Positions 16,423 through 62,587 of a stretch of 64,000 bases of DNA are shown piece by piece (positions within the stretch are counted from its first letter, which is position 1; the number at the start of each line of letters is the position of its first letter). A program made the translations under genes and the position numbers. The DNA is from a virus (lineage: Duplodnaviria > Caudoviricetes): the IMG/VR virus record IMGVR_UViG_3300045595_000041, positions 26,206 to 90,205 of that record, one strand, 5' to 3'. The notes under the pieces are model-generated. The model had not been told where the DNA came from. It was given only the letters and a program-made list of their open reading frames with translations, and made no database searches.

Positions 16423-17114
16423 ATGTCTTGACTTTTGATTTGGAGACTACTGGCCTTGATTTCGATTCAGACCAGATCACTCAATTTGCTGCAATGCGTT
16501 TTAGTGATGGCAAGATAAGGGAATTCCAGTTCAAGCTACCAGCAACTAAGCAATTGTCAGAAGCAGCAGCTGAGAAGACTGGATTCGATCTTGATAGTTT
16601 GAAGAAAGATTCGCCATTCAATGACTACAATGAAGCGCTTAAGAATGCTTTGAACGTAATAGTCTCTGCTATATCTAATGACTATGTGATTTGCGGATAT
16701 AATGTGTCATTTGACTTGACTATGCTTTTCAACAATGCTGCAAGAGAGCTTAACGTCAACAAGACCGCTTTAAGCAAGCTGTTCAATATTGCTTTGGTAT
16801 ATGATGCATATGTCATTGACAAAGAATACAGACGCAATACTAATGGAATGTCAAGGCGTCTTGTAGATGTTGCAGACTTCTATGAAGTGCCAAGCAAGCC
16901 CAATCATGATGCGAAGTATGATGTAAGAGCTACATTTGAAGTAATGCAAGCTCAGTTGCAATCGTATAACGACAAGCTTGGAGACAGCAAAGAGCAAATA
17001 TGCAAAGATTGCAAGCTTGCAGCTATTGCACAAAGAGAATCTCTCAATATGTGGCTAAAGACTAAAGAGCATGAGAAGCTTTACGAGGGATTCCCTATTC
17101 TAAAAGAAGCATGA
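16419..17114 (+). CDS. DnaQ-like DEDDh 3'-5' exonuclease
   Basis: FDLETTG, GYNVSFD, HDAKYD motifs. Confidence 0.9.
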   Translation: MNVLTFDLETTGLDFDSDQITQFAAMRFSDGKIREFQFKLPATKQLSEAAAEKTGFDLDSLKKDSPFNDYNEALKNALNVIVSAISNDYVICGYNVSFDLTMLFNNAARELNVNKTALSKLFNIALVYDAYVIDKEYRRNTNGMSRRLVDVADFYEVPSKPNHDAKYDVRATFEVMQAQLQSYNDKLGDSKEQICKDCKLAAIAQRESLNMWLKTKEHEKLYEGFPILKEA

Positions 17115-17167
17115 CTTATTTTTACTATCGATTTTACAAATGCAGAATTTTGTATTATAATAAAACT

Positions 17168-17290
17168 ATAAGGTTTAATCCAATCATAATGCGGTTGCCT
17201 TGAAACGGTTGAGGCTAGTTAGATTCCTTTCAGACCTTGATTGTTTCGTTAATTGTTGCATGCATCTTAATGGTGCATGCAACTTTAATC
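17168..17290 (+). ncRNA. Putative ~120-nt small RNA
   Basis: Promoter 17130-17161, no ORF, internal hairpins, 12-bp terminator-like stem 17255-17283 followed by T-rich run. Confidence 0.45.
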
Positions 17291-17314
17291 TTTGCAATTC
17301 AAATATTGCATTTT

Positions 17315-17379
17315 GGGTAATATGGTACTGTATGTAGAGTGTTCTGTATATTGTTGATGTTCGATTCATCAGTTACCTA
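17315..17379 (+). ncRNA. tRNA-like RNA lacking a D-arm
   Basis: Acceptor-like stem GGGTAAT/GTTACCT plus canonical T-arm TGATG-TTCGATT-CATCA; single central hairpin. Confidence 0.4.
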
Positions 17380-17490
17380 CGCAGTTTCAGTAGGCTATGA
17401 GTTAGCAGCATGACGAAAGTCATCATGGTTATATGTGACCACTAACGAGCTGAATGCTATAGCATACAGTCTGGTGCAATGCCAGACATT

Positions 17491-17564
17491 GCCTTTGTAA
17501 TTCAACTGGATAGAATGCCCGTCTTCTAAACGGGATGTTGCGAGTCCGAGTCTCGCCAAAGGCA
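17491..17564 (+). tRNA. tRNA-Arg(UCU)
   Basis: Acceptor GCCTTTG/CAAAGGC, D-arm ATTC/GAAT, anticodon arm CCCGT-CT TCT AA-ACGGG, T-arm GCGAG-TCCGAGT-CTCGC; no encoded CCA. Confidence 0.92.
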
Positions 17565-17590
17565 CGATGATTGCGGTCTATCATCAAAAC

Positions 17591-49239: not shown

Positions 49240-50575
49240 AGTTAAACTATGTCATAAAATGTGATACAATCAACTTATATATAGAAGATTGGAGGTATAC
49301 GATGGATGACAAAGCACGTCTATCTAAGAACAGTCGTATAGCTCAATCGGGAAAAGAAACTCGGAATCGCAGAAAACATCAGGAATGCAAAGTATTCTCG
49401 CTTAAGATACAAAACAACAAACTGAGTTCACTTCAAAAAGAACAACTTAAGATGTGCTTTGTTGAAGCAAAATGGCTAAGGAATGATGTTCTGTCCAATG
49501 GTGTGCAGGGCTATGTGATAAAACGTGATGTTGAAGTCAAGACACCTACTGGTATGGTCACAAGAGCATTCTCATATCTTAGTGCTCGGGTCAAGCAGTC
49601 TGTTGTCGAAGAAGTGAAGCAGAATCTTAAAACTCTGTCATCATTGAAGAAGAAAGGGCATCATGTAGGAAAACTCAAGTTTGTTTCAGAAGTCACATCA
49701 ATCAATCTTGCACAATATGGTTTCACCTATAAGGTCAAAGGTCGTAGAATTCATGTTCAGAAAATTAGTGGCTGGATGCGTGTCAATGGTGTGGAGCAGC
49801 TTCATGGATATGAACTTGCCAATGCCAAATTGCTGAACCGTCCCGATGGCTGTTATCTTAATGTGACATGCTTTAGAGACAAGCAAAAAGAAGACTTCTT
49901 GGAAGGCACTGCAATTGGTATTGATATGGGTGTAAAGACTCATATCACTCTATCTGATGGAACGAAGATCAAAGCCACAGTCGGAGAAACTGAGCACTTG
50001 AGACGCTTGCATAAGAAGCTGTCGCGTCAGACAAAAGGCTCTAACGGCTATGTCAAGACTCGAACTCTCATCAAAATAGAATACCAGAAGCTCACCAACA
50101 AGAAGAACGACATGTCCAATCATATCGTCAATTGTCTTCTACGATACAATCATGTATGCATGCAGGACGAAAACGTAAAAACATGGAGAAGTCTAAAGTC
50201 TCTATCTCATGGTTCAAGAACCATCCAGCATTCTATTCTTGGTCGGGTGAAGAGCAAGTTGGTCGCTAACCCAAGAACAATTGTTCTTGATAGATTCGAA
50301 CCTACGACAAGGCTGTGCGAGTGTGGCATGAAGAACACTGTGTCGCTATCAGACAGAACCTATCATTGTGACAGATGTGGATATGCTAATGATAGAGATG
50401 TTCATGCTGCACAGAACATGATTCGAATTAGCGAATCACATAATCTGTTGATACCTATGGAACATAGGAATTTTAAGCCAGTGGAGAGTCTATTAGACGT
50501 GTTGACGAAGTATGCCAATACGCAGGACTCTATGAAACTGGAAGCTTCTGAGTCTTTAGACTAGTGGTAGTTCAT
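49240..50575 (+). mobile_element. Non-autonomous IS200/IS605- or IS607-type element (tnpB only)
   Basis: Right-end-like GAAGC...TTTAG...TGGTAGTTCAT at 50541-50575; hairpin CATAGTT-A-AACTATG at 49237-49251; no tnpA seen; left boundary approximate. Confidence 0.7.
49302..50564 (+). CDS. tnpB: TnpB RNA-guided endonuclease
   Basis: RuvC-I GIDMGVK, RuvC-II MQDE, TTRLCECG...YHCDRCG Zn ribbon, RuvC-III DRDVHAAQN. Confidence 0.92.
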   Translation: MDDKARLSKNSRIAQSGKETRNRRKHQECKVFSLKIQNNKLSSLQKEQLKMCFVEAKWLRNDVLSNGVQGYVIKRDVEVKTPTGMVTRAFSYLSARVKQSVVEEVKQNLKTLSSLKKKGHHVGKLKFVSEVTSINLAQYGFTYKVKGRRIHVQKISGWMRVNGVEQLHGYELANAKLLNRPDGCYLNVTCFRDKQKEDFLEGTAIGIDMGVKTHITLSDGTKIKATVGETEHLRRLHKKLSRQTKGSNGYVKTRTLIKIEYQKLTNKKNDMSNHIVNCLLRYNHVCMQDENVKTWRSLKSLSHGSRTIQHSILGRVKSKLVANPRTIVLDRFEPTTRLCECGMKNTVSLSDRTYHCDRCGYANDRDVHAAQNMIRISESHNLLIPMEHRNFKPVESLLDVLTKYANTQDSMKLEASESLD

Positions 50576-50603: not shown

Positions 50604-51650
50604 GTGAAAATGGGACATTTTGTAAAAGTGTTGGATTCTGAAGCAATTGACACTTCAGATATGAACAATAGCGAACTAGATGCTTTTCATAAAGCTAAAG
50701 CTTACAAGCATCTTGCATTCTCAAGGCCAATACAGTTCAAGCCTGATGCTAATGGCTCAATTGAAGAGCAAGCTATGGCAGCTGAAGAAGCAGCTGATCC
50801 GATAAATGCTAGAGTTGAGAACAGAGCTCAGTTCGTAGAAGGCTTGAATGTCTATCTGTCTCCTCAAGCAGTAGCTAAGATATTCGACGACTTCGACATC
50901 AATGGCATTCACAGACATCTTGAGAAGCAAAATCAGGGTGCATACTCTAAAGAGTACCATATGCATTGCGATCCAGCTAAAGTCAACGATGACTTTGCTG
51001 TCATGATATGCCATTCTGAACTGAATGAGCCTGACGAGTTCGGCATAAGCTACAAGCACATGATAGTCGACTGGTATTCAGTCTACAAGTCAAGCCAGTT
51101 CGAATCTGGTCAGATAGAGTACAGACACATATTGAATGACATAAAGCAGCTGATAGCTCTGTTCAGGCTTAAGACGATATCATTCGATCAGTTCAATTCA
51201 GTAATGCCGATACAGGATCTCATGGCATACTGCCATGAGAACAACATAGCTTGCAAAGTGTTTGAAGAGACATTCACTGGAAGCAAGAACACTAAGATGT
51301 ACGAGATATTGAAGATGTGCATAAACGAGCATTGGGTTCATTCGTACTTCGATGACATGAACACTTGGGAGACAGCTAGGTGCATGCTTCAAGCAGAACT
51401 GGAAGCTTTGCAGATAGTGAATGGCAAAGTAGTCAAGCCAAGAATAGGGAATCTTGGGCACTCAGATCTTGTCGACTGCTTGATGGTGCTAGCATACAGA
51501 CTTCTTTCAGACCAGACTAATGCTAGAGCAGACAGATATCTGAACAATGTCGTGTCTAGTCCATCTGATTCGTTAAATTCAGCAGTATCTGACATAGATG
51601 CATATGCTAAGCCGTCTAAGTTCAAGTCTCCATATTCTGGAATGTTTTGA
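50604..51650 (+). CDS. terL: Terminase large subunit, RNase H-like nuclease half
   Basis: RVENRAQF, MHCDPAKVNDDFA, ISFDQFNS, ELEALQ...KVVKP...HSDLVDC; complements the 32260 ORF. Confidence 0.8.
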   Translation: MKMGHFVKVLDSEAIDTSDMNNSELDAFHKAKAYKHLAFSRPIQFKPDANGSIEEQAMAAEEAADPINARVENRAQFVEGLNVYLSPQAVAKIFDDFDINGIHRHLEKQNQGAYSKEYHMHCDPAKVNDDFAVMICHSELNEPDEFGISYKHMIVDWYSVYKSSQFESGQIEYRHILNDIKQLIALFRLKTISFDQFNSVMPIQDLMAYCHENNIACKVFEETFTGSKNTKMYEILKMCINEHWVHSYFDDMNTWETARCMLQAELEALQIVNGKVVKPRIGNLGHSDLVDCLMVLAYRLLSDQTNARADRYLNNVVSSPSDSLNSAVSDIDAYAKPSKFKSPYSGMF

Positions 51651-56277: not shown

Positions 56278-58779
56278 ATGAGCAATCAAGTCACAGAGGC
56301 TTTCTACTCTGGAGTGGAAGTCATGGTGCGTCTTGCAAACAGCTCCATAATAGACGTGTCTGATGATGTTGAGTCTGTCACTGTATCAAGACGCAAGTCT
56401 GCAATATCGACAGCATCAGTCACTCTGAACAATGCAGGATCGTATTCTCAGGGCAAGTACAGCGCTGGTAAATGGAAGCTGCACCCTGGCGATGCTGTGC
56501 ACATAAGCTTCCTCAAGAACGACAGGACTATAGAAGCTTTCACTGGCAAGATATCCAAATGCCCAGCTTTCGGATTCTATAACATAAGCTACTCATTCGA
56601 TTGCGAAGACGCTATAGGCGACTTGCACTACATCTACTGGGATCCGTATTCGACTAAAGCTATAGAGAAGTACTGGAACGGCACAATGTCTGTACTTAGC
56701 AACGACAGCAAGTCAAGCAATGACGCTGAATCAGGGTCTCAGCTAGTGCAGTTCTTGCAGGACGTATGCGGCTTTCCGTCTAGCATGATAAAGATAGCTA
56801 AGTTCCCTAATCAGAATAAGTTCGTAGATGACATAATCGGATCGATAACTGATGGCAAAGCTCAGTCTGATGACATGGCTCTGTCTATATTCCAGCAGCT
56901 GTTCGGTCCAACAAACATGTCTGATGCTTCTTCTAGCAAAAATGGATCTGCTGCAGCTGGAGACGTAGATTCTTATCAAGGCGTCATCAAGAAAATGCTG
57001 AATCTTGATGCTAAATCTAACATGAATGATGTGGGCAAAGAAGTTGGATTCGTCAATGCAAACAGCAATACCACTTATGACTGGACGCATATGGATGGAG
57101 AAGGTCATACTGGCAAGTATGGTCTGACTCAAGAGCAGATGAAGAAATGGGCTAAGATCGACAAAGCAGCTAAAGACTGCTCAGCATCTGCTCAGGACAA
57201 AGCTATGAAAGCTATATGCTTAGACATATCAAAGGGCACAGGAAGTGAAGATGCTGCTTGCATCATATTCTACTACTTCACTGGTCTCAATATCAAAGAC
57301 AAAAAAGGCAAAGCTGATCTGAAGCTTCCAAGCAATGCCTATCTTAAGATTGGCAATACTACTTACAAGACTCTTGACAAGTGGAAAGCTTTCATAGACA
57401 AGCAGATTGGTAAGACTAGTAGCTCTTCTTCATCTGGCTCGTCTAGTTCACATACATCAAATTCAGCTACTGGATCGACAGCTATGGATAGAAAGCTAGA
57501 TGCATTTCTGAAAAAGCATGCTGATGGTACTCCATCTCTTGATGTAGATGGAGCTTTCGGGCATCAGTGCTGGGATCTGTATCTGTCTTACGGCAAGGAA
57601 GTCTTGGGCTTCAGCATGGGCAGTCCAGAGATGATGCAAGATGCTGGCGGAAATGGTGCTTTCTACAATGCTATGCCGAAAGGGTCTAGCGGAAATGTGC
57701 TGAAGAAGATACCGCCAAGCGAAACATGCCAGAAGGGCGACATAGTACTGTGGAGAAGCTCTCCTGGAGATGGAGGATATGGGCATGTCGCTATAGTGCT
57801 TTCAGACAAGGGATCAGGCGTGGACTGCTTGTCGCAGGGAGGGTCAATACCAACTGTCTTCAGAATGACGATGCCAAAGAACTCTGGTGGCTATTCGCTT
57901 GCAGGGTATCTTAGACCTACTGGAGTGACTGGGTCTTCTGACGACTCTGGCTCATCAGATGGCAGCTCGTCTGACTCTGCTACTGCTACTGCTGAAGACC
58001 TAGCATACAAGCTGTTCAAGTATGTCACTTATGTAGGGCAGACACCAAGCTATGAGTCTGAAGCTCTTACTGGCCCATTAGCTCTGTACAATGACAAGCC
58101 TGCGCTTGAATTCGTGCAATCACTTTGCAAAGGGTCTATGAGAGAGTTCATGACTTTGCCAGATGGATCGTTTGCAGCATTCGTACCTGACTACTTCGGC
58201 AAGCTTCATGCATCTGGCATTCTTAACAACGAGATATCGATACCTCAGTACGAGATAGTAGACTACTCTGCAGACTTCAACAAGTCCATGTACACTTCTC
58301 ATGTCTACTTGCTTACTAGAGAGCATATGGACACTCAGTACGGAGTCACTATCGGAACATTCGATGAAGTGCAAAGACTTCTGCAATCAAATGGCACTAT
58401 ATCGTTGGAGAAGCAGGGAGACAGTCTTCTCAAGCTTGTAGACATATCGATAACAGGATGCAAGACAGCATCTCAGCTATTGCAAAGATTCGGAGTATCA
58501 GTATACGATACTACTGACAACTACATAATAGACTCAACTATGACAGCTGTCAAAGCTTTGCTGATCTTCATGGAGAGATGGGCAGCTTGCTTCTCGAATA
58601 CTTTGAAGATAACATTCAGGCCAGAGATACTGCCAGGTATAAGACTTAGACTAGAAGGAGCAGGAGTGACTGTATTCGTGGAGTCTGTCACTCATTCTTG
58701 GTCCGCTACTAATGGCGGAGCTACAAATGTGCAGATATCGTCTCCAGTTGAGACGAATACTGGAAAAGTTGGATTGTAA
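56278..58779 (+). CDS. Baseplate hub-like protein with internal CHAP peptidoglycan hydrolase
   Basis: Hub-type N- and C-termini (IDVSDDV..V.V.R, FRPEILPG.R...VESVTHSW); DVDGAFGHQCWDL...GYGHVAIV...LSQ...GYLRP CHAP domain. Confidence 0.8.
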   Translation: MSNQVTEAFYSGVEVMVRLANSSIIDVSDDVESVTVSRRKSAISTASVTLNNAGSYSQGKYSAGKWKLHPGDAVHISFLKNDRTIEAFTGKISKCPAFGFYNISYSFDCEDAIGDLHYIYWDPYSTKAIEKYWNGTMSVLSNDSKSSNDAESGSQLVQFLQDVCGFPSSMIKIAKFPNQNKFVDDIIGSITDGKAQSDDMALSIFQQLFGPTNMSDASSSKNGSAAAGDVDSYQGVIKKMLNLDAKSNMNDVGKEVGFVNANSNTTYDWTHMDGEGHTGKYGLTQEQMKKWAKIDKAAKDCSASAQDKAMKAICLDISKGTGSEDAACIIFYYFTGLNIKDKKGKADLKLPSNAYLKIGNTTYKTLDKWKAFIDKQIGKTSSSSSSGSSSSHTSNSATGSTAMDRKLDAFLKKHADGTPSLDVDGAFGHQCWDLYLSYGKEVLGFSMGSPEMMQDAGGNGAFYNAMPKGSSGNVLKKIPPSETCQKGDIVLWRSSPGDGGYGHVAIVLSDKGSGVDCLSQGGSIPTVFRMTMPKNSGGYSLAGYLRPTGVTGSSDDSGSSDGSSSDSATATAEDLAYKLFKYVTYVGQTPSYESEALTGPLALYNDKPALEFVQSLCKGSMREFMTLPDGSFAAFVPDYFGKLHASGILNNEISIPQYEIVDYSADFNKSMYTSHVYLLTREHMDTQYGVTIGTFDEVQRLLQSNGTISLEKQGDSLLKLVDISITGCKTASQLLQRFGVSVYDTTDNYIIDSTMTAVKALLIFMERWAACFSNTLKITFRPEILPGIRLRLEGAGVTVFVESVTHSWSATNGGATNVQISSPVETNTGKVGL

Positions 58780-58903: not shown

Positions 58904-59341
58904 TCATACATGCATGATGCAAGCATTGCCATGCCAGTCTGTATACACTGCATTCTTTACGTTAGCTGCTTTCATCAGCTTCTGGCATCTCTTGCATGGC
59001 TTAGACATCGTAGCTGTGCCATCAGAATAGACTCTAGCTACATAGACAGTAGAATTGCCAGCATCACCTCTGCATGCCTTCAAAGCTTGCTCTTCAGCAT
59101 GTACAGATATGCCTGATGGTCTGTCTAGCATGTATGCAGGATTGTTTCGCATCTTGTTGATTCCTACAGACAGAACATTGTTGCTTCTTACGACTAAAGC
59201 GCCATGTTTCTTCTTGCATGAACTGAGCTTAGCTAGTTCTGTAGCTATGTCAAGCCAATGCTGATGTCTTGCTGATATCATGTCTTTCGTAGCTTTCATA
59301 ACCAGCGACGTTCGAAACCACTTATAGGATGCAATATACAT
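58904..59341 (-). CDS. Zn-dependent CMP/dCMP deaminase-family protein
   Basis: KHGALVV...GIN, HAE, SKPCKRC; own minus-strand promoter 59425-59456; true start may be further downstream. Confidence 0.85.
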   Translation of the reverse strand: MYIASYKWFRTSLVMKATKDMISARHQHWLDIATELAKLSSCKKKHGALVVRSNNVLSVGINKMRNNPAYMLDRPSGISVHAEEQALKACRGDAGNSTVYVARVYSDGTATMSKPCKRCQKLMKAANVKNAVYTDWHGNACIMHV

Positions 59342-59593
59342 TTGATGCTTTGATTAGCTATTACGTCGTTATTGCTTTTGATCCACATTCAATATCGCTT
59401 TCTTGTTTTTGTTCTTATAGTTATATTATATAACATAATAGTACGAAAGTAAAATCTGAAGCATTCCAGTTGTTGTCATGATGATCCAGATTGAAATCGT
59501 TGTTTTGTATCCATATAATTATATAGACTAGTAAATTCACGATTTTACATTTGCTAAAAAGTGTTATATAATATTTATATAGGTTGGTGACAA

Positions 59594-60070
59594 TCTATGA
59601 TAAGATTGTGTTGAGCAATACAGATATGGACATTGTGTCTAGCATATGGTCTTTTGCTGCATGAGCTAATATCGATTGAGTTGATGACTGACATCATACG
59701 ATTTCGATATGCTTGATGGTCATGCAGTACTTTGGATGGCAGTAGCTTTCACATCCAGAAGCAATTCAGCCATGTGTGCAGGTACTGAAATAGCCTGGCA
59801 TCTTTGTTCGTGCTTGCATCTGATGCAAGATGGGATCAGCAACTTCAGAAATGCTGAAATTCATGGTCTGCTTAAGAGGCATAGCCTACGAGTTCCATCT
59901 AATGCTCAGAGCAAATGCAAGCCTGAGGACCACAATATCCTCAATGTCTGCACAGCATAGAATACTCTATATCCGAAGCTTGCTTTATAGACAGCAGTTC
60001 AGGGCTATTTCCCTGAAATAGGACAAGTATGCTTAGAACATGCATCAACATCTAAATATCTTATTATAGA
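59594..60070 (+). ncRNA. Putative large structured non-coding RNA (~480 nt)
   Basis: Promoter 59541-59572; 13-bp terminal helix plus more than 10 nested helices; no credible ORF. Confidence 0.65.
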
Positions 60071-60084
60071 AAGAAGAATCTAAC

Positions 60085-60399
60085 ATGAGCATTGAAAATG
60101 AAAATGAATTTGCAGATGAATCATATCATTCACTATTTACGAAGTCTAAAATGAACAGACTTGCATTCAATCAAGAGCAATGGCTTAAGCTTGATTCAAA
60201 GATTTCGTATGCTTTACTTAATCATTACGTAGACTTGAATGCTAATCTAATCAAAGAACTTGATGTTTTGTATGCTTATACAGAAATGACTTTGCCAAAT
60301 GTTCCAGTAAAAGACAAGAAGGCATTTGATTTGTATGAATCTATCAATAACAGACTTCATATAATGGATACAAGACGTTCAGAACTTGAAAGCATCTGA
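60085..60399 (+). CDS. Hypothetical protein
   Basis: 104-aa ORF. Confidence 0.5.
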   Translation: MSIENENEFADESYHSLFTKSKMNRLAFNQEQWLKLDSKISYALLNHYVDLNANLIKELDVLYAYTEMTLPNVPVKDKKAFDLYESINNRLHIMDTRRSELESI

Positions 60400-60522
60400 T
60401 TTCTGATTTGAAATAGAATGATTTTTCAAATAGACTACGATAGTCATATTGGTCTTCAAACCAATATCTAGCTTGGCAGCAATGCTTGCGAAAAATACGA
60501 GAATCTGAAATGAATTGCAGTA

Positions 60523-61035
60523 ATGCAGAAAGAAGACGATATGCTAGACGATTCAGATATGATAGTCGTAGGTGCTAAAGCATTCAAGAAGAGAAAGAAG
60601 TCTAGAAGGTCTTCCAATCCCATCAAGTATCGCAATTGCGAATCTGAAAGCTTCATCAGAACTGTGCATAGTTATGACAAGCAATTGTTCAAGAGCATAG
60701 ATTCAGAAAACAGTTTCGATTATGTAGACGAATCAGTCAAAAGACGCAATGCAGCAAACTTCATTAGCAAAGCAGCTAGAATGTTCGTATTGAACAAACT
60801 ATACGAAGACAAGAATGTAGTAGATGACATAATGCATGATGCTGATTATGATGCAATAGAAGATGATCTAGACAATTTTGCTGATACTGTCTTATCGAAT
60901 CTGAAATATGACATCAGCGACAATAAAGCATTGCGCAGCAAAGTCAGCAGCATAGTGTCTAGCTTGATGAAAGAAGATGTAATTGACATGCTAGCACAAC
61001 AGTATTCAATGCGTGCTATCAAAAGTATGATGTAG
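60523..61035 (+). CDS. Hypothetical protein
   Basis: 170-aa ORF with a basic patch. Confidence 0.55.
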   Translation: MQKEDDMLDDSDMIVVGAKAFKKRKKSRRSSNPIKYRNCESESFIRTVHSYDKQLFKSIDSENSFDYVDESVKRRNAANFISKAARMFVLNKLYEDKNVVDDIMHDADYDAIEDDLDNFADTVLSNLKYDISDNKALRSKVSSIVSSLMKEDVIDMLAQQYSMRAIKSMM

Positions 61036-61264
61036 CTTTGCTGTCTGCTGCTATGGACAATGATGTTCATGCAAAAGAGAGCAGCGAAAACATCGCAAAC
61101 CGTAGCTTGTTTGATATAATCTATTATATAGAGATATAGGTCTCATCATCAAATACAAGCTATAGGAGCAGCTATCTTGAATTTCATAATGCTTTCTATA
61201 CTAGCAATAGTAGCGATCATATCAGTCATTCTGTCTAAGATAGAGAAGAAGTAGCGAGAAAGTC

Positions 61265-62587
61265 ATGACTGAGCAAGAAAGCTCTCTTGGCCAGGACATG
61301 GTGTTCATGCCCTCTACGCTGCCAGTGCTGTCGTCTATAGACGTAGACAGTATAATGGCTCATTTTGATGATGACGTATATGACAAGACAGCTTCAAGCC
61401 ATCTAAGGCACATTGTAGAAGTAGTATGCGGTCAAGCAGGCTTTGGACAGCTTCTTGCTGCTTCTGTAAAAGACTGGCTTAATGGCGGAGTAGAGACAGC
61501 TTGGCTTGGCTTTGTAGACCAGCTGTTCGCTTCTATATACGGGCTTCCAAGAGTCTATTCTGAAAAGACCTCATTCGATACTGATGCAGCGCTGCTTACA
61601 GTAGACGAAGCTAATGAAGCTCTAGTCAAGGAGTCATGGTACAAAGAGCGCTTCGTCGACATGATGCGTGCTATGAATGATGGCGGTACTGTCAAAGGGT
61701 TCAAGGAAGCAGTAAGATCTGTCACATTCGATGACTGTGAGATGTACGAGACATGGAGATATGAGAAGCGTGATGAGACTGTCGGCAGAATGCAGTACCT
61801 TCTCAGAAATGAAGTAGTCATAGTCCCAGACAACAAAGACATAACTCCTCAGCAGAAAGACCTGCTACTTAGAGTCTTAGACAGAATCAAACCTGCTGAT
61901 GTCATCGTCACTATAGACACAAATGGCTTGGCATCATACAAAGAAGACTCTCTAAGAGACATATCTGCATCTTCGTCATACTTTGAGATAGTCAAGACTC
62001 TGACTAATGCAGTAGACTCATCTAAGCTGCCACCGCCAGAATACTTGTTCGACGAGATAGCTTATGGCTATGATGCAAACTTCAATCTCAATCTTGGCGA
62101 TAAAGCAGAAGTCAGGAAGAGCATGGAGAGAAGGACGCAAGAGTATTCTGAGTACTACGTATACGACAAGTCCAACAACACTCAGATAAAGAACATCTCA
62201 TACCAGTCTGAATACGAGTCTACGACAAAAGACGAGACTAGCTTCTCCGAGAAGACTTCATCGATACAGTGGTCTGACTGGAAGCAATTCGACAGAATAG
62301 ACTCTCCTGACAACTTCCCTGGTGGCAAGTACGGAAAGACTCCATTGAGCGCTCCAGCTCTCAACAAAGACGGATCATCATACACTTTCCAGTATGACAG
62401 CCAGAATGAGTACGAGCTAGAGCAGTCTAAGAGCATAATAGCATCTGGAGGGCAAGTAAGCGGGCATCAGTACAGAATGAAGTCATTCTCGTCATCGTCT
62501 GACATAACGTATCTTCCAGAGATGTCGCTAATGTCTGTCAACAATTCTGATGGCACTCTTTCGATGATGCCTGAGAAGAGCAAGTAG
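61265..62587 (+). CDS. Probable baseplate wedge subunit
   Basis: YKERF......GGTVKGFKEAV and LDRIKPAD motifs typical of P2 gpI-like wedge proteins; precedes baseplate J. Confidence 0.6.
   Translation: MTEQESSLGQDMVFMPSTLPVLSSIDVDSIMAHFDDDVYDKTASSHLRHIVEVVCGQAGFGQLLAASVKDWLNGGVETAWLGFVDQLFASIYGLPRVYSEKTSFDTDAALLTVDEANEALVKESWYKERFVDMMRAMNDGGTVKGFKEAVRSVTFDDCEMYETWRYEKRDETVGRMQYLLRNEVVIVPDNKDITPQQKDLLLRVLDRIKPADVIVTIDTNGLASYKEDSLRDISASSSYFEIVKTLTNAVDSSKLPPPEYLFDEIAYGYDANFNLNLGDKAEVRKSMERRTQEYSEYYVYDKSNNTQIKNISYQSEYESTTKDETSFSEKTSSIQWSDWKQFDRIDSPDNFPGGKYGKTPLSAPALNKDGSSYTFQYDSQNEYELEQSKSIIASGGQVSGHQYRMKSFSSSSDITYLPEMSLMSVNNSDGTLSMMPEKSK

What the first reader, a model, noticed from the sequence alone, without database searches (positions are those of the whole stretch)
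59594..60070. Large, ornate, promoter-driven non-coding RNA candidate (~480 nt)
Seen: downstream of a consensus promoter, the ends pair (TCTATGATAAGAT 59594-606 with ATCTTATTATAGA 60058-70; TGTTGA 59609 with TCAACA 60045). Nested helices inside include GGACATTG/CAATGTCT, TGGTC/GACCA, GCTGCATGA/TCATGCAGT, ATATCGA/TCGATAT, TGATG/CATCA, TGGATG/CATCCA, AAGCA/TGCTT, GCCATG/CATGGT, CTTGCA/TGCAAG, TTCAG/CTGAA, AGGC/GCCT, CTCAG/CTGAG and CTATTTC/GAAATAG. CTGAAAT occurs three times (T-loop-like), and AGCATA (59641) could pseudoknot with TATGCT (59708 or 60028). Established: phages carry large structured RNAs such as ROOL and GOLLD. I see no RNase P, tmRNA or group I/II intron hallmarks, so this may be a divergent member or a new class.
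Basis: partly seen in the sequence, partly recalled or inferred. Interest (0 to 1): 0.8.

Follow-up and report, generated by a model that had tools for sequence, protein, structure and literature searches.

The report
Orphan structured leader RNA of phage
An uncultured sludge phage has about 500 untranslated, tightly folding bases between a strong early-type promoter and two orphan genes, most likely a large regulatory leader RNA of no known family, but it is known from only two near-identical genomes, so its structure cannot yet be proven.

Summary
Bases 59580-60084 carry stops in all six frames. They lie behind a promoter that belongs to a family of 19 plus-strand copies, and no terminator follows, so the stretch runs straight into a 104-aa orphan gene. 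The plus strand folds better than shuffles (z -4.0) and ranks 2 of 213 among GC-corrected windows of this genome. The two short ORFs score as spurious. Rfam gives nothing (ROOL, GOLLD, introns, RNase P and tmRNA included).

Only one other genome holds the element, a 96-98% identical sister phage. Four 55-57% relatives lack it by BLAST and by two covariance models. Covariation is therefore untestable: 0 of 156 pairs change on both sides, and the 11 natural substitutions preserve the fold no better than random ones.

Divergence is low, 2.3% against about 10% at nearby silent sites, but this is not unique in the genome (rank 89 of 1125).

A 28-nt segment (59634-59661) can pair with the ribosome-binding site and start of the second gene (-36 kcal/mol).

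Best reading: a cis-acting structured leader, or a processed antisense RNA. The scan had already noted the same element on the sister genome (e1-5962380).

The parts
59491..59519 (+). Upstream tandem promoter-like site (TTGAAA-17-TATAAT)
   Evidence: 11 of 12 matches. It is conserved in the sister genome apart from one spacer change at 59506.
59544..59572 (+). Promoter of the phage's early-type family (TTTACA-17-TATAAT); inferred transcription start about 59579-59582
   Evidence: one of 19 plus-strand copies. The 18 others have an ORF of at least 45 aa starting 13-84 nt after the -10 box; here gene104 starts 513 nt after it. The start site is inferred, not measured.
59425..59453 (-). Divergent promoter of the same family, driving the dCMP deaminase gene 58904-59341 (context)
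59580..60084 (+). Untranslated structured leader RNA (about 505 nt)
   Evidence: Stops in all six frames; fold z -4.02; rank 2 of 213; 2.3% divergence from the sister genome; no terminator.
59594..59617 (+). 5' strand of the closing helix (13 + 7 + 3 bp)
   Evidence: (I3) and 59: pair probabilities 0.97, 0.95 and 0.90. The change 60065 T>C in the sister turns a G.U pair into G-C.
60041..60070 (+). 3' strand of the closing helix; it ends at the first base of the GAAAGAAG Shine-Dalgarno-like run of gene104
   Evidence: In the sister, 60041 and 60042 break two pairs of the innermost 3-bp extension.
59634..59661 (+). Anti-RBS segment, complementary to the translation start region of the second gene
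   Evidence: 12 + 7 + 6 bp, -36.3 kcal/mol (sister -34.8). The segment lies in the least determined part of the fold (pair probability 0.37-0.38).
59655..59729 (+). Three-tier hairpin domain (10 + 7 + 5 bp)
   Evidence: pair probabilities 0.95, 0.97 and 0.89. The sister change 59686 G>T opens the apical pair.
59812..59922 (+). Long stem domain (7 + 5 + 3 + 6 bp, with branched tip)
   Evidence: pair probability 0.84-0.98. There is 1 substitution in 125 nt across 59801-59925, and it keeps its pair (G-C to G.U).
59924..59943 (+). Hairpin (6 bp)
   Evidence: pair probability 0.89.
59998..60017 (+). Hairpin (7 bp). Its 3' side overlaps a CTGAAATAG repeat, and GGCTATTTC (60003-60011) can pair instead with 59787-59795
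   Evidence: pair probability 0.95; D7, I13.
60085..60399 (+). gene104, an orphan 104-aa all-helical protein and the first cistron behind the leader
   Evidence: one cluster only, 94% identity; coding score 0.24.
60522..60551 (+). Target of the anti-RBS segment: GAAAGAAGA Shine-Dalgarno-like run plus ATG 60541 of the second gene
   Evidence: The sister's two changes here (a 1-nt deletion and 60549 C>T) leave the duplex at -34.8 kcal/mol.
60541..61035 (+). gene170 (probable true start 60541, giving 164 aa), an orphan all-helical protein with a basic N-terminal stretch
   Evidence: frame argument; only itself and the sister in 5.8 and 1.84 billion proteins; no fold match.

Best explanation
The stretch is the roughly 505-nt untranslated, highly folded 5' leader of a small early-type transcription unit: leader, then orphan gene104, then orphan gene170. 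This unit sits, together with a divergently transcribed dCMP deaminase, as an accessory island between the tail-hub gene and the baseplate genes of an uncultured actinophage-like myovirus.

Host RNA polymerase starts at tandem sigma-70/sigmaA-type promoters. The RNA closes on itself with a 23-bp composite helix whose 3' strand ends exactly where the ribosome-binding site of gene104 begins. A 28-nt segment in the least stably folded part of the leader is complementary to the ribosome-binding site and start codon of gene170, about 880 nt downstream.

I propose that the leader sets how much of the two proteins is made. It could do so by occluding their ribosome-binding sites in cis, through a long-range pseudoknot-type pairing. 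It could also do so after processing, as an antisense RNA acting on its own operon in the way the phage P1 c4 RNA does. The bulky fold may in addition protect a long untranslated RNA from decay or premature termination.

Shown by computation: the non-coding status, membership of the promoter family, absence of a terminator, excess folding energy, low divergence and the complementarity. Inferred: the transcription start, that the RNA is made, that the pairing forms in vivo, and what signal (if any) switches it.
For: - **Non-coding:** 10-17 stops in each of six frames, and spurious-range codon scores for the 83-aa and 63-aa ORFs.
- **Promoter:** one of 19 plus-strand family members. The 18 others are followed within 13-84 nt by an ORF, mostly with an AAAGGA or GGAG site. 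Those I annotated precede DNA ligase, a thymidylate-synthase-like gene and orphan ORFs, which fits an early or middle class.
- **No terminator:** none on the plus strand from 59200 to 61400.
- **Fold:** z -4.02 on the plus strand against -2.60 on the minus strand, and rank 2 of 213 genome windows.
- **Conservation:** 11 of 477 positions (2.3%) differ from the sister genome, against 155 of 1551 (10.0%) at third codon positions of the four neighbouring genes (Fisher p = 3e-9) and 9.9% in the 142 nt just upstream.
- **Substitutions on the window's plus-strand fold:** 5 keep their pair through G.U, 3 break it and 3 are unpaired. On the minus-strand fold the counts are 2 kept and 4 broken.
- **Anti-RBS duplex:** -36.3 kcal/mol, against -19.9 for the best of 99 other ORF starts tried with the same segment (the segment was chosen for this match). 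Unbiased scans place it third best ungapped on the 64-kb plus strand and 6th of 5282 sliding 40-nt targets.
- **Duplex in the sister genome:** it survives both changes in the target.
- **5' end pairing:** bases 59580-59585 can pair with 60077-60082, between the Shine-Dalgarno run and the AUG of gene104 (pair probability 0.73).
- **RNA library:** one wastewater metatranscriptome run holds two 151-nt records, at 59849-59999 and 60066-60206. This is presence in an RNA library only, not proof of transcription.
Against: - **No covariation:** 0 of 156 pairs change on both sides.
- **Substitutions no better than random:** the sister's 11 substitutions threaded on the window's fold give -140.8 kcal/mol, against -143.1 +/- 5.0 for random sets of 11 transitions. 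146 of 200 random sets were at least as stable.
- **Low divergence is not unique:** the element ranks 89 of 1125 fully aligned 477-nt windows. Parts of the tape-measure and hub genes reach 1.05%, and other intergenic stretches show 0-3%. A recent recombination patch could mimic selection.
- **Complementarity of this strength occurs by chance:** about 3-6 sites per 64 kb. My estimate of 0.005-0.01 for one landing on a downstream start site is rough and was made after looking.
- **The duplex cannot be seen in nested folding,** because it would be a pseudoknot (summed pair probability 0.03).
- **Not a conserved feature of the phage group:** four relatives whose baseplate protein is 55-57% identical have tightly packed, unrelated genes at this spot and no match to the RNA.
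- **No expression data of any weight.**
Confidence: 0.45

Rival explanations
1. It is a free-standing large structured RNA that acts in its own right, for example as an assembly, decoy or sponge like the ornate phage RNAs. It would be released from the leader by processing, and its position in front of gene104 would be incidental.
For: Its size (about 480 nt), the closure by a long terminal helix and several well-determined domains are typical of stand-alone structured RNAs. Conservation runs along the whole length rather than only near the ribosome-binding sites. Phages are known to carry large RNAs of unknown function (PMC12286853, passages read).
Against: There is no terminator or recognisable 3' end. 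No Rfam family matches. It is not near a tRNA island. There is no covariation or pseudoknot support. I found no segment antisense to the shared leaders of the 18 other promoter-driven genes: best duplexes of -10 to -29 kcal/mol were scattered over the RNA. It occurs in two genomes only.
Confidence: 0.2
2. There is no RNA-level function. The stretch would be a spacer or a decayed remnant inside a variable accessory island. Its low divergence would reflect a recent recombination patch between two strains, and its good fold would be a chance outlier.
For: Substitutions are no more structure-preserving than random ones. The divergence rank is only 89 of 1125. A coding window in the tape-measure gene folds equally well (rank 1 of 213). 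The island is variable: the deaminase is replaced by other genes in the sister, and the whole arrangement is missing from the relatives.
Against: Divergence drops to 2.3% between flanks at about 10% (upstream 142 nt, and third codon positions of gene104), and the drop coincides with the element. Every other copy of this promoter sits 13-84 nt from an ORF. A 13-bp near-perfect helix joining the two ends, with the ribosome-binding site of the next gene directly behind it, is an unlikely accident.
Confidence: 0.2
3. It is a remnant of a miniature inverted-repeat mobile element, or another DNA-level site such as an origin whose transcript primes replication, as in ColE1 RNA II or the T4 origins (both recalled, not tested).
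For: It has 13-bp terminal inverted repeats. A very AT-rich divergent-promoter zone lies directly upstream, the fourth richest 200-nt window. The element is present or absent as a unit among related phages.
Against: It is single-copy: the arm motif occurs only at the two ends, and the element matches only itself in its own genome. No target-site duplication is visible at the ends (read). Cumulative GC skew shows no turn here. The other AT-rich zones are simply promoter-bearing spacers.
Confidence: 0.08
4. It encodes one or two small proteins (the ORFs at 59709-59960 and 59830-60021).
For: Both ORFs are intact in both genomes.
Against: Codon scores are in the spurious range. No Shine-Dalgarno site precedes 59709. 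The 4 substitutions in the 83-aa ORF fall 2, 1 and 1 on codon positions 1, 2 and 3, whereas in the neighbouring DUF7297 gene 64 of 74 fall on position 3. There is no family hit. Together the ORFs cover little more than half of the conserved stretch.
Confidence: 0.03

Closest known systems
c4 antisense RNA of phages P1/P7 (immI operon c4-icd-ant)
   Same: The RNA is encoded at the head of the same transcription unit as its targets, and it has a segment complementary to the ribosome-binding region of a downstream cistron. [quoted passage not shown]
   Different: This RNA is about six times larger. There is no match to any Rfam family, c4 included. Processing is unknown. The target is the second gene, 880 nt away. 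The phage looks lytic and actinophage-like, not P1-like. The primary paper PMC312442 was not held.
ROOL and GOLLD large ornate phage/prophage RNAs
   Same: All are phage-borne, several hundred nucleotides long, multi-domain and of unknown function (PMC12286853, passages read).
   Different: There is no hit to the Rfam models at E up to 10. The element is not near a tRNA island. It has no terminator and runs into a gene. It has no covariation support. It is smaller than GOLLD, many of whose members exceed 800 nt according to the paper.
Long-range RNA pairings that gate ribosome-binding sites in polycistronic phage RNAs (MS2/Qbeta)
   Same: The concept is the same: distant complementary segments within one polycistronic RNA set translation of a cistron. 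PMC2978339 and PMC5934652 were seen only as search listings and abstract starts.
   Different: Those are RNA-genome phages with experimentally mapped pairings. Here the pairing is a prediction in the mRNA of a DNA phage.
Morons (accessory transcription units with their own promoter, inserted between late genes; concept recalled)
   Same: The unit has its own early-type promoter, sits between the tail-hub and baseplate genes, varies between close relatives and is absent from more distant ones.
   Different: Morons are not known, to my recall, for a 500-nt structured leader.

Membership tests
ROOL / GOLLD / OLE / raiA and every other Rfam 15 family (4227 models) | Match to the family covariance model | tested here: not met
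   at gathering scores, only a tRNA at 17491; at E up to 10 on 59300-60200, both strands, the only hit is snoRNA snR55 at 20.4 bits against a gathering score of 50.
ROOL / GOLLD | Frequent placement near tRNA islands (typical but not obligatory; PMC12286853) | tested here: not met
   The window's single tRNA gene lies at 17491-17565, 42 kb away.
ROOL / GOLLD | Covariation-supported ornate secondary structure with pseudoknots | not testable with these tools
   Only two sequences, 97.7% identical; 0 of 156 pairs change on both sides.
P1 c4-type operon-internal antisense RNA | Encoded upstream of its targets in the same transcription unit | tested here: met
   Promoter at 59544-59572, no terminator up to 61400, and both genes on the same strand. 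The transcript itself is inferred.
P1 c4-type operon-internal antisense RNA | Segment complementary to the ribosome-binding region of a downstream cistron | tested here: met
   59634-59661 pairs with 60522-60551 at -36.3 kcal/mol. It ranks 3rd and 6th of 5282 genome-wide.
P1 c4-type operon-internal antisense RNA | Processed to a short stable RNA (77 bases in P1) | not testable with these tools
   It needs RNA end mapping. The laid runs were contigs, which show no ends.
P1 c4-type operon-internal antisense RNA | Sequence or structure homology to c4 | tested here: not met
   No Rfam hit of any kind.
Group I/II introns, RNase P RNA, tmRNA | Model match; for tmRNA a tRNA-like domain and tag reading frame | tested here: not met
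   ARAGORN finds no tmRNA. The element interrupts no gene.
Miniature inverted-repeat transposable element | Terminal inverted repeats | tested here: met
   13-nt arms, 92% complementary (I3).
Miniature inverted-repeat transposable element | Multiple copies and a target-site duplication | tested here: not met
   There is one copy in its own genome. The arm motif occurs only at the two ends. The flanks ...GACAA and AAGAA... show no duplication.
The phage's own early-type promoter family | TTTAC[AT]-N17-TATAAT with conserved flanks, plus-strand orientation | tested here: met
   (D2, D4).

The most novel reading that the evidence does not exclude
The stretch is the founding member of a new class of large phage riboregulator. 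In this reading it is a multi-domain RNA of about 480 nt, made early from a host-type promoter. It is released from its own operon's leader and uses an exposed 28-nt arm to shut the ribosome-binding site of a downstream orphan gene, while the rest of the fold senses a signal or builds a higher-order particle.
Probability: 0.12. Interest if true: 0.65.

Novelty: new variant of a known kind. Interest (0 to 1): 0.4.

Why it matters
Large structured RNAs of phages are few, and their functions are unknown. Here the candidate comes with a concrete, testable partner: the ribosome-binding site of a gene in its own operon. It also comes with a simple genetic test, compensatory mutations in the two arms.

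If the model holds, it would show that lytic phages of Gram-positive-type hosts use very long folded leaders to time or dose accessory genes inserted in their tail modules.

If it fails, the case is a useful caution. Folding z-scores and low divergence between two strains are not enough to call a structured RNA.

Tried and rejected
- **Alternative genetic code.** All three stop codons occur in every frame of the stretch, and the phage's long ORFs end in TGA, TAG and TAA (26, 18 and 14). Rejected.
- **Homolog hunt.**
  - blastn 'distant' against 50,697 phage records found no match.
  - IMG/VR scans with gene104 and with the DUF7297 protein returned only the sister genome.
  - A DUF7297 alignment (20 sequences, A2) gave 5 loci in viral contigs and 6 in metagenome contigs. 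None lies between 57% and 99% identity. It gave nothing in 185,579 species genomes.
  - BLAST and nhmmer of the RNA against four relatives' loci and against five whole records gave only chance hits. Three 19-20-nt hits to the same query spot fell inside coding genes.
  - Covariance models R1 (59642-59777) and R2 (59810-59945) hit only the sister among five records.
- **Protein searches.** Both downstream genes are orphans. The atlas gave no usable hit. Single-sequence AlphaFold models were weak (pLDDT 63.7 and 61.2), and Foldseek against the PDB gave nothing at E <= 0.001.
- **'Anti-leader loop' idea** taken from earlier scan notes on other actinophages. No RNA segment is consistently antisense to the 18 other promoter-driven leaders. 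Rejected here.
- **Pairing of the leader with the gene104 and DUF7297 start regions** by duplex folding was no better than shuffled targets (108 and 105 of 200 shuffles as good).
- **The top-ranked duplex target,** 58909-58948, is a patchwork with large loops. I took it as chance.
- **Tandem repeats.** None in the RNA.
- **Origin of replication.** No turn in GC skew.
- **boxA-like motif.** UGGUCUUUUGCUG at 59647-59659 partly resembles the E. coli rrn boxA as I recall it. The motif is recalled, the host is unknown and I did not test it.
- **Sequencing runs**. 14 of 17 listed rows hold part of the stretch. All DNA holders are bioreactor-sludge or wastewater runs, and 5 may be the source sample. 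Small-share rows (X13, X14) carried the same variants as the sister genome. The parts of the stretch without cover in the RNA run X12 carry no weight.
- **Alignment A3** was off by one base and was replaced by A4.
- **Papers.** PMC5737381 (224 candidate RNAs) was seen only as a listing and abstract start. Its supplementary motif lists, which I could not see, might hold a related motif. I make no claim that the element is absent from print. My searches were for comparison systems, not for this sequence.
Full report
**Setting.** The window is bases 26206-90205 of a 90,205-base IMG/VR virus record (CheckV completeness 81). It uses the standard code: its 58 stop-to-stop frames of at least 150 aa end in TGA, TAG and TAA, and cover 81% of the window. 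Nearly all genes are on the plus strand.

The finding lies in the tail module. An 833-aa hub protein with a CHAP domain (56278-58779) lies upstream, and a DUF7297 baseplate protein (61265-62587) lies downstream. DUF7297 matches 224 phage records by tblastn, all below 60% identity: 209 Mycobacterium, 9 Gordonia, 4 Rhodococcus, 1 Mycolicibacterium and 1 Eggerthella phages.

Between these two structural genes sits an island made of four parts:
- a minus-strand dCMP deaminase gene (58904-59341);
- a 250-nt AT-rich zone with divergent promoters;
- the flagged stretch;
- two orphan genes, 60085-60399 ('gene104') and 60523/60541-61035 ('gene170').

**The observation.** Nine of its 15 helices are in the minimum-free-energy fold, and the rest are competing alternatives. 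The plus strand folds to -153.9 kcal/mol, 4.0 standard deviations better than 100 dinucleotide shuffles; the minus strand reaches 2.6.

Shuffles can flatter, so I also folded 212 other 477-nt windows of the same genome and regressed energy on GC. The candidate ranks 2 of 213 on the plus strand (z -3.1) and 3 of 213 on the minus strand. It is beaten only by a window in the repetitive tape-measure gene. The candidate window was cut at its own closing helix, which helps it.

The well-determined parts (pair probability at least 0.84) are:
- the closing helix 59594-59617/60041-60070;
- a three-tier hairpin, 59655-59729;
- a long stem, 59812-59922;
- two hairpins, 59924-59943 and 59998-60017.

**Non-coding.** Across 59400-60100 each of the six frames has 10-17 stops of all three kinds. 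Their codon-usage scores are -0.08 and -0.20, inside the distribution of 91 spurious ORFs (mean -0.13, sd 0.21). Gene104, gene170 and the deaminase score 0.24-0.29, and 10 of 11 small neighbouring genes score 0.19-0.41. No Shine-Dalgarno site precedes the 83-aa ORF. Its four differences from the sister genome fall 2, 1 and 1 on codon positions 1, 2 and 3, whereas 64 of 74 differences in DUF7297 are at position 3.

**Promoter-driven, and a leader by construction.** The promoter at 59544-59572 is not just a consensus match. It belongs to a family of 44-66-nt look-alikes (D2-D4). A simple regex finds 19 copies on the plus strand and one on the minus strand, and the minus-strand copy faces the deaminase gene.

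In the 18 other plus-strand copies, an ORF of at least 45 aa starts 13-84 nt after the -10 box. Here gene104 starts 513 nt after it. The genes I annotated behind these promoters are a DNA ligase, a thymidylate-synthase-like protein and orphans, so I read the family as an early or middle, host-polymerase class. This is the only plus-strand copy inside the structural module.

A second promoter-like site lies at 59491-59519. No plus-strand terminator-like site lies anywhere from 59200 to 61400. The transcript must therefore run into gene104: the stretch is that gene's 5' leader unless it is cut out.

**Known families.** Rfam 15 gives only the window's tRNA at gathering scores. On the stretch itself, at E up to 10, it gives only a noise hit to a yeast snoRNA. 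ARAGORN finds no tmRNA. ROOL, GOLLD, OLE, introns, RNase P, riboswitches and c4 are therefore not met as memberships.

**Relatives.** Only one other genome holds the element: a complete 108,378-base IMG/VR phage with terminal repeats, handle G001, loci L003/L004. It is 97.7% identical over the 477 nt, with 11 substitutions and no indels. Upstream of 59398 the two genomes differ, and the sister has two other minus-strand ORFs in place of the deaminase.

The next relatives have a DUF7297 protein 55-57% identical: four IMG/VR records (one of which, L008, reappears among the metagenome contigs as L013) plus four further metagenome contigs. A sixth metagenome locus (L014) is 39% identical. The IMG/VR relatives whose upstream region I mapped (L005-L007) have tightly packed, unrelated genes upstream of DUF7297 and no large gap. 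Neither BLAST nor nhmmer nor two covariance models found the RNA in the four IMG/VR relatives: nhmmer was run on their loci L005-L008, and BLAST and the two models on their whole records.

Gene104 and gene170 are orphans even in libraries of 5.8 and 1.84 billion proteins.

**Selection or recombination.** The element differs at 11 of 477 positions (2.3%) from the sister. Third codon positions of the four neighbouring genes differ at 155 of 1551 (10.0%), and the 142 nt just upstream at 9.9% (Fisher p = 3e-9). On its face that is purifying selection on the nucleotide sequence.

Genome-wide the picture is less clean. The element ranks 89 of 1125 fully aligned 477-nt windows (median 5.2%). Parts of the tape-measure and hub genes are at 1.05%, and other spacers range from 0 to 21%. 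A recent recombination patch cannot be excluded with two genomes.

**Does the variation respect the fold?** On the window's fold, 5 of the 11 substitutions keep their pair by G.U exchange (59769, 59774, 59922, 59983, 60065), 3 break one (59686, 60041, 60042) and 3 are unpaired. No pair changes on both sides. On the minus-strand fold 2 are kept and 4 broken, a slight lean to the plus strand.

The direct control is negative. Random sets of 11 transitions threaded on the same fold average -143.1 +/- 5.0 kcal/mol, the natural set gives -140.8, and 146 of 200 random sets do at least as well. There is no evolutionary support for the structure yet.

**A partner for the RNA.** I tested this here.

Bases 59634-59661 pair with 60522-60551 in three runs of 12, 7 and 6 bp, at -36.3 kcal/mol. 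The target holds GAAAGAAGA, the same weak Shine-Dalgarno-like run that precedes gene104, and the ATG at 60541. The sister has a 1-nt deletion between the ATGs at 60523 and 60541, which breaks the frame from 60523, so 60541 is the likely true start. That deletion and a C>T change at 60549 both fall in the target, and they leave the duplex at -34.8 kcal/mol.

In unbiased scans the site is the third best ungapped complement on the 64-kb plus strand and 6th of 5282 sliding 40-nt targets (z about -3.5). I put the chance of such a match landing on a start region of the downstream genes at roughly 0.005-0.01, an estimate made after looking.

The segment lies in the least determined part of the fold (pair probability 0.37-0.38). 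The pairing would be a pseudoknot across the closing helix, so nested folding cannot show it.

Two further details concern gene104. The closing helix ends at the first base of its Shine-Dalgarno run. The first six transcribed bases can also pair with the spacer between that run and the AUG (pair probability 0.73).

**Expression.** One wastewater metatranscriptome run holds two 151-nt records on the stretch I laid, at 59849-59999 and 60066-60206, with 3 and 2 differing letters. These are contigs in an RNA library. They show presence, not transcription, strand or ends.

**Reading.** Most likely (0.45) this is a real, plus-strand, untranslated structured leader that doses or times the two orphan proteins through ribosome-binding-site occlusion, in cis or after processing. 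The closest working analogue is the P1 c4 RNA, but the element is not a member of that family or of any other.

The rivals are:
- a stand-alone large RNA of a new class (0.2);
- no RNA-level function (0.2);
- a mobile-element or origin-type DNA feature (0.08);
- small proteins (0.03).

The promoter, the absence of ORFs, the excess fold, the low divergence and the complementarity are computed facts. Transcription, the in vivo fold, the pairing and any switch are inference.

**Comparison and novelty.** The element works like known operon-internal antisense or long-range RBS-gating RNAs. It differs in size (about 500 nt), in architecture (a closed multi-domain fold) and in host context (an early-type unit inside the tail module of an actinophage-like myovirus). 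I rate it a new variant of a known kind, at moderate interest. The element is real as a sequence feature and comes with a testable partner, but it rests on two near-identical genomes, lacks covariation, and was already noted by this scan on the sister genome.

Noticed in passing
window, 19 plus-strand sites from 1647 to 59572 and one minus-strand site 59453-59425: A family of near-identical promoters (GATTTTAC[AT]TT...TG.TATATAATATAAcTATAAg) precedes a DNA ligase gene, a thymidylate-synthase-like gene and many orphan ORFs. Inside the structural module it occurs only around the flagged stretch.
   Followed up: partly
window 4004, 13758, 26104, 42740, 44033, 47718, 51672, 58802 (103 nt each): Eight copies of a roughly 100-nt dispersed repeat at 64-84% identity, often lying just before a promoter copy. 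One sits directly after the tail-hub gene. Its function is unknown; it could be a terminator-like or mobile element (D1).
   Followed up: no
window 17133-17565: A family promoter at 17133-17161 is followed by about 330 nt without a credible ORF, and then by tRNA-Arg(TCT). Plus-strand windows at 17101, 18301 and 18601 are among the better-folding ones (z -2.4 to -2.7). This may be a second non-coding transcript.
   Followed up: no
window 61177-61254: A 25-aa strongly hydrophobic ORF with a TTG start and a GGAG run a few bases upstream, in the 229-nt spacer between gene170 and the baseplate gene. That spacer differs from the sister at only 2.6%.
   Followed up: no
window 49302-50564: A TnpB-like transposase gene (phrog_506, E 3.8e-35) lies directly before the gene at 50604. 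The sister genome has two copies, 71-73% identical at the DNA level, at different places.
   Followed up: no
window 58904-59341 and L003 1157-2040: The dCMP deaminase gene is absent from the sister genome, which carries two other minus-strand ORFs (137 and 157 aa) at the same spot. This marks a swap-prone accessory slot in the tail module.
   Followed up: partly
window 60523-60541: The mechanically called start of the 170-aa ORF (ATG 60523) is probably wrong. A 1-nt deletion in the sister between 60523 and 60541 leaves only ATG 60541 in frame in both genomes.
   Followed up: yes
window 59507-59575, as seen in run X10: In one sludge run the promoter zone has several-fold higher contig depth, and many contigs break at about 59540 and 59574. 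That is as expected for a repeat shared by many promoters.
   Followed up: partly
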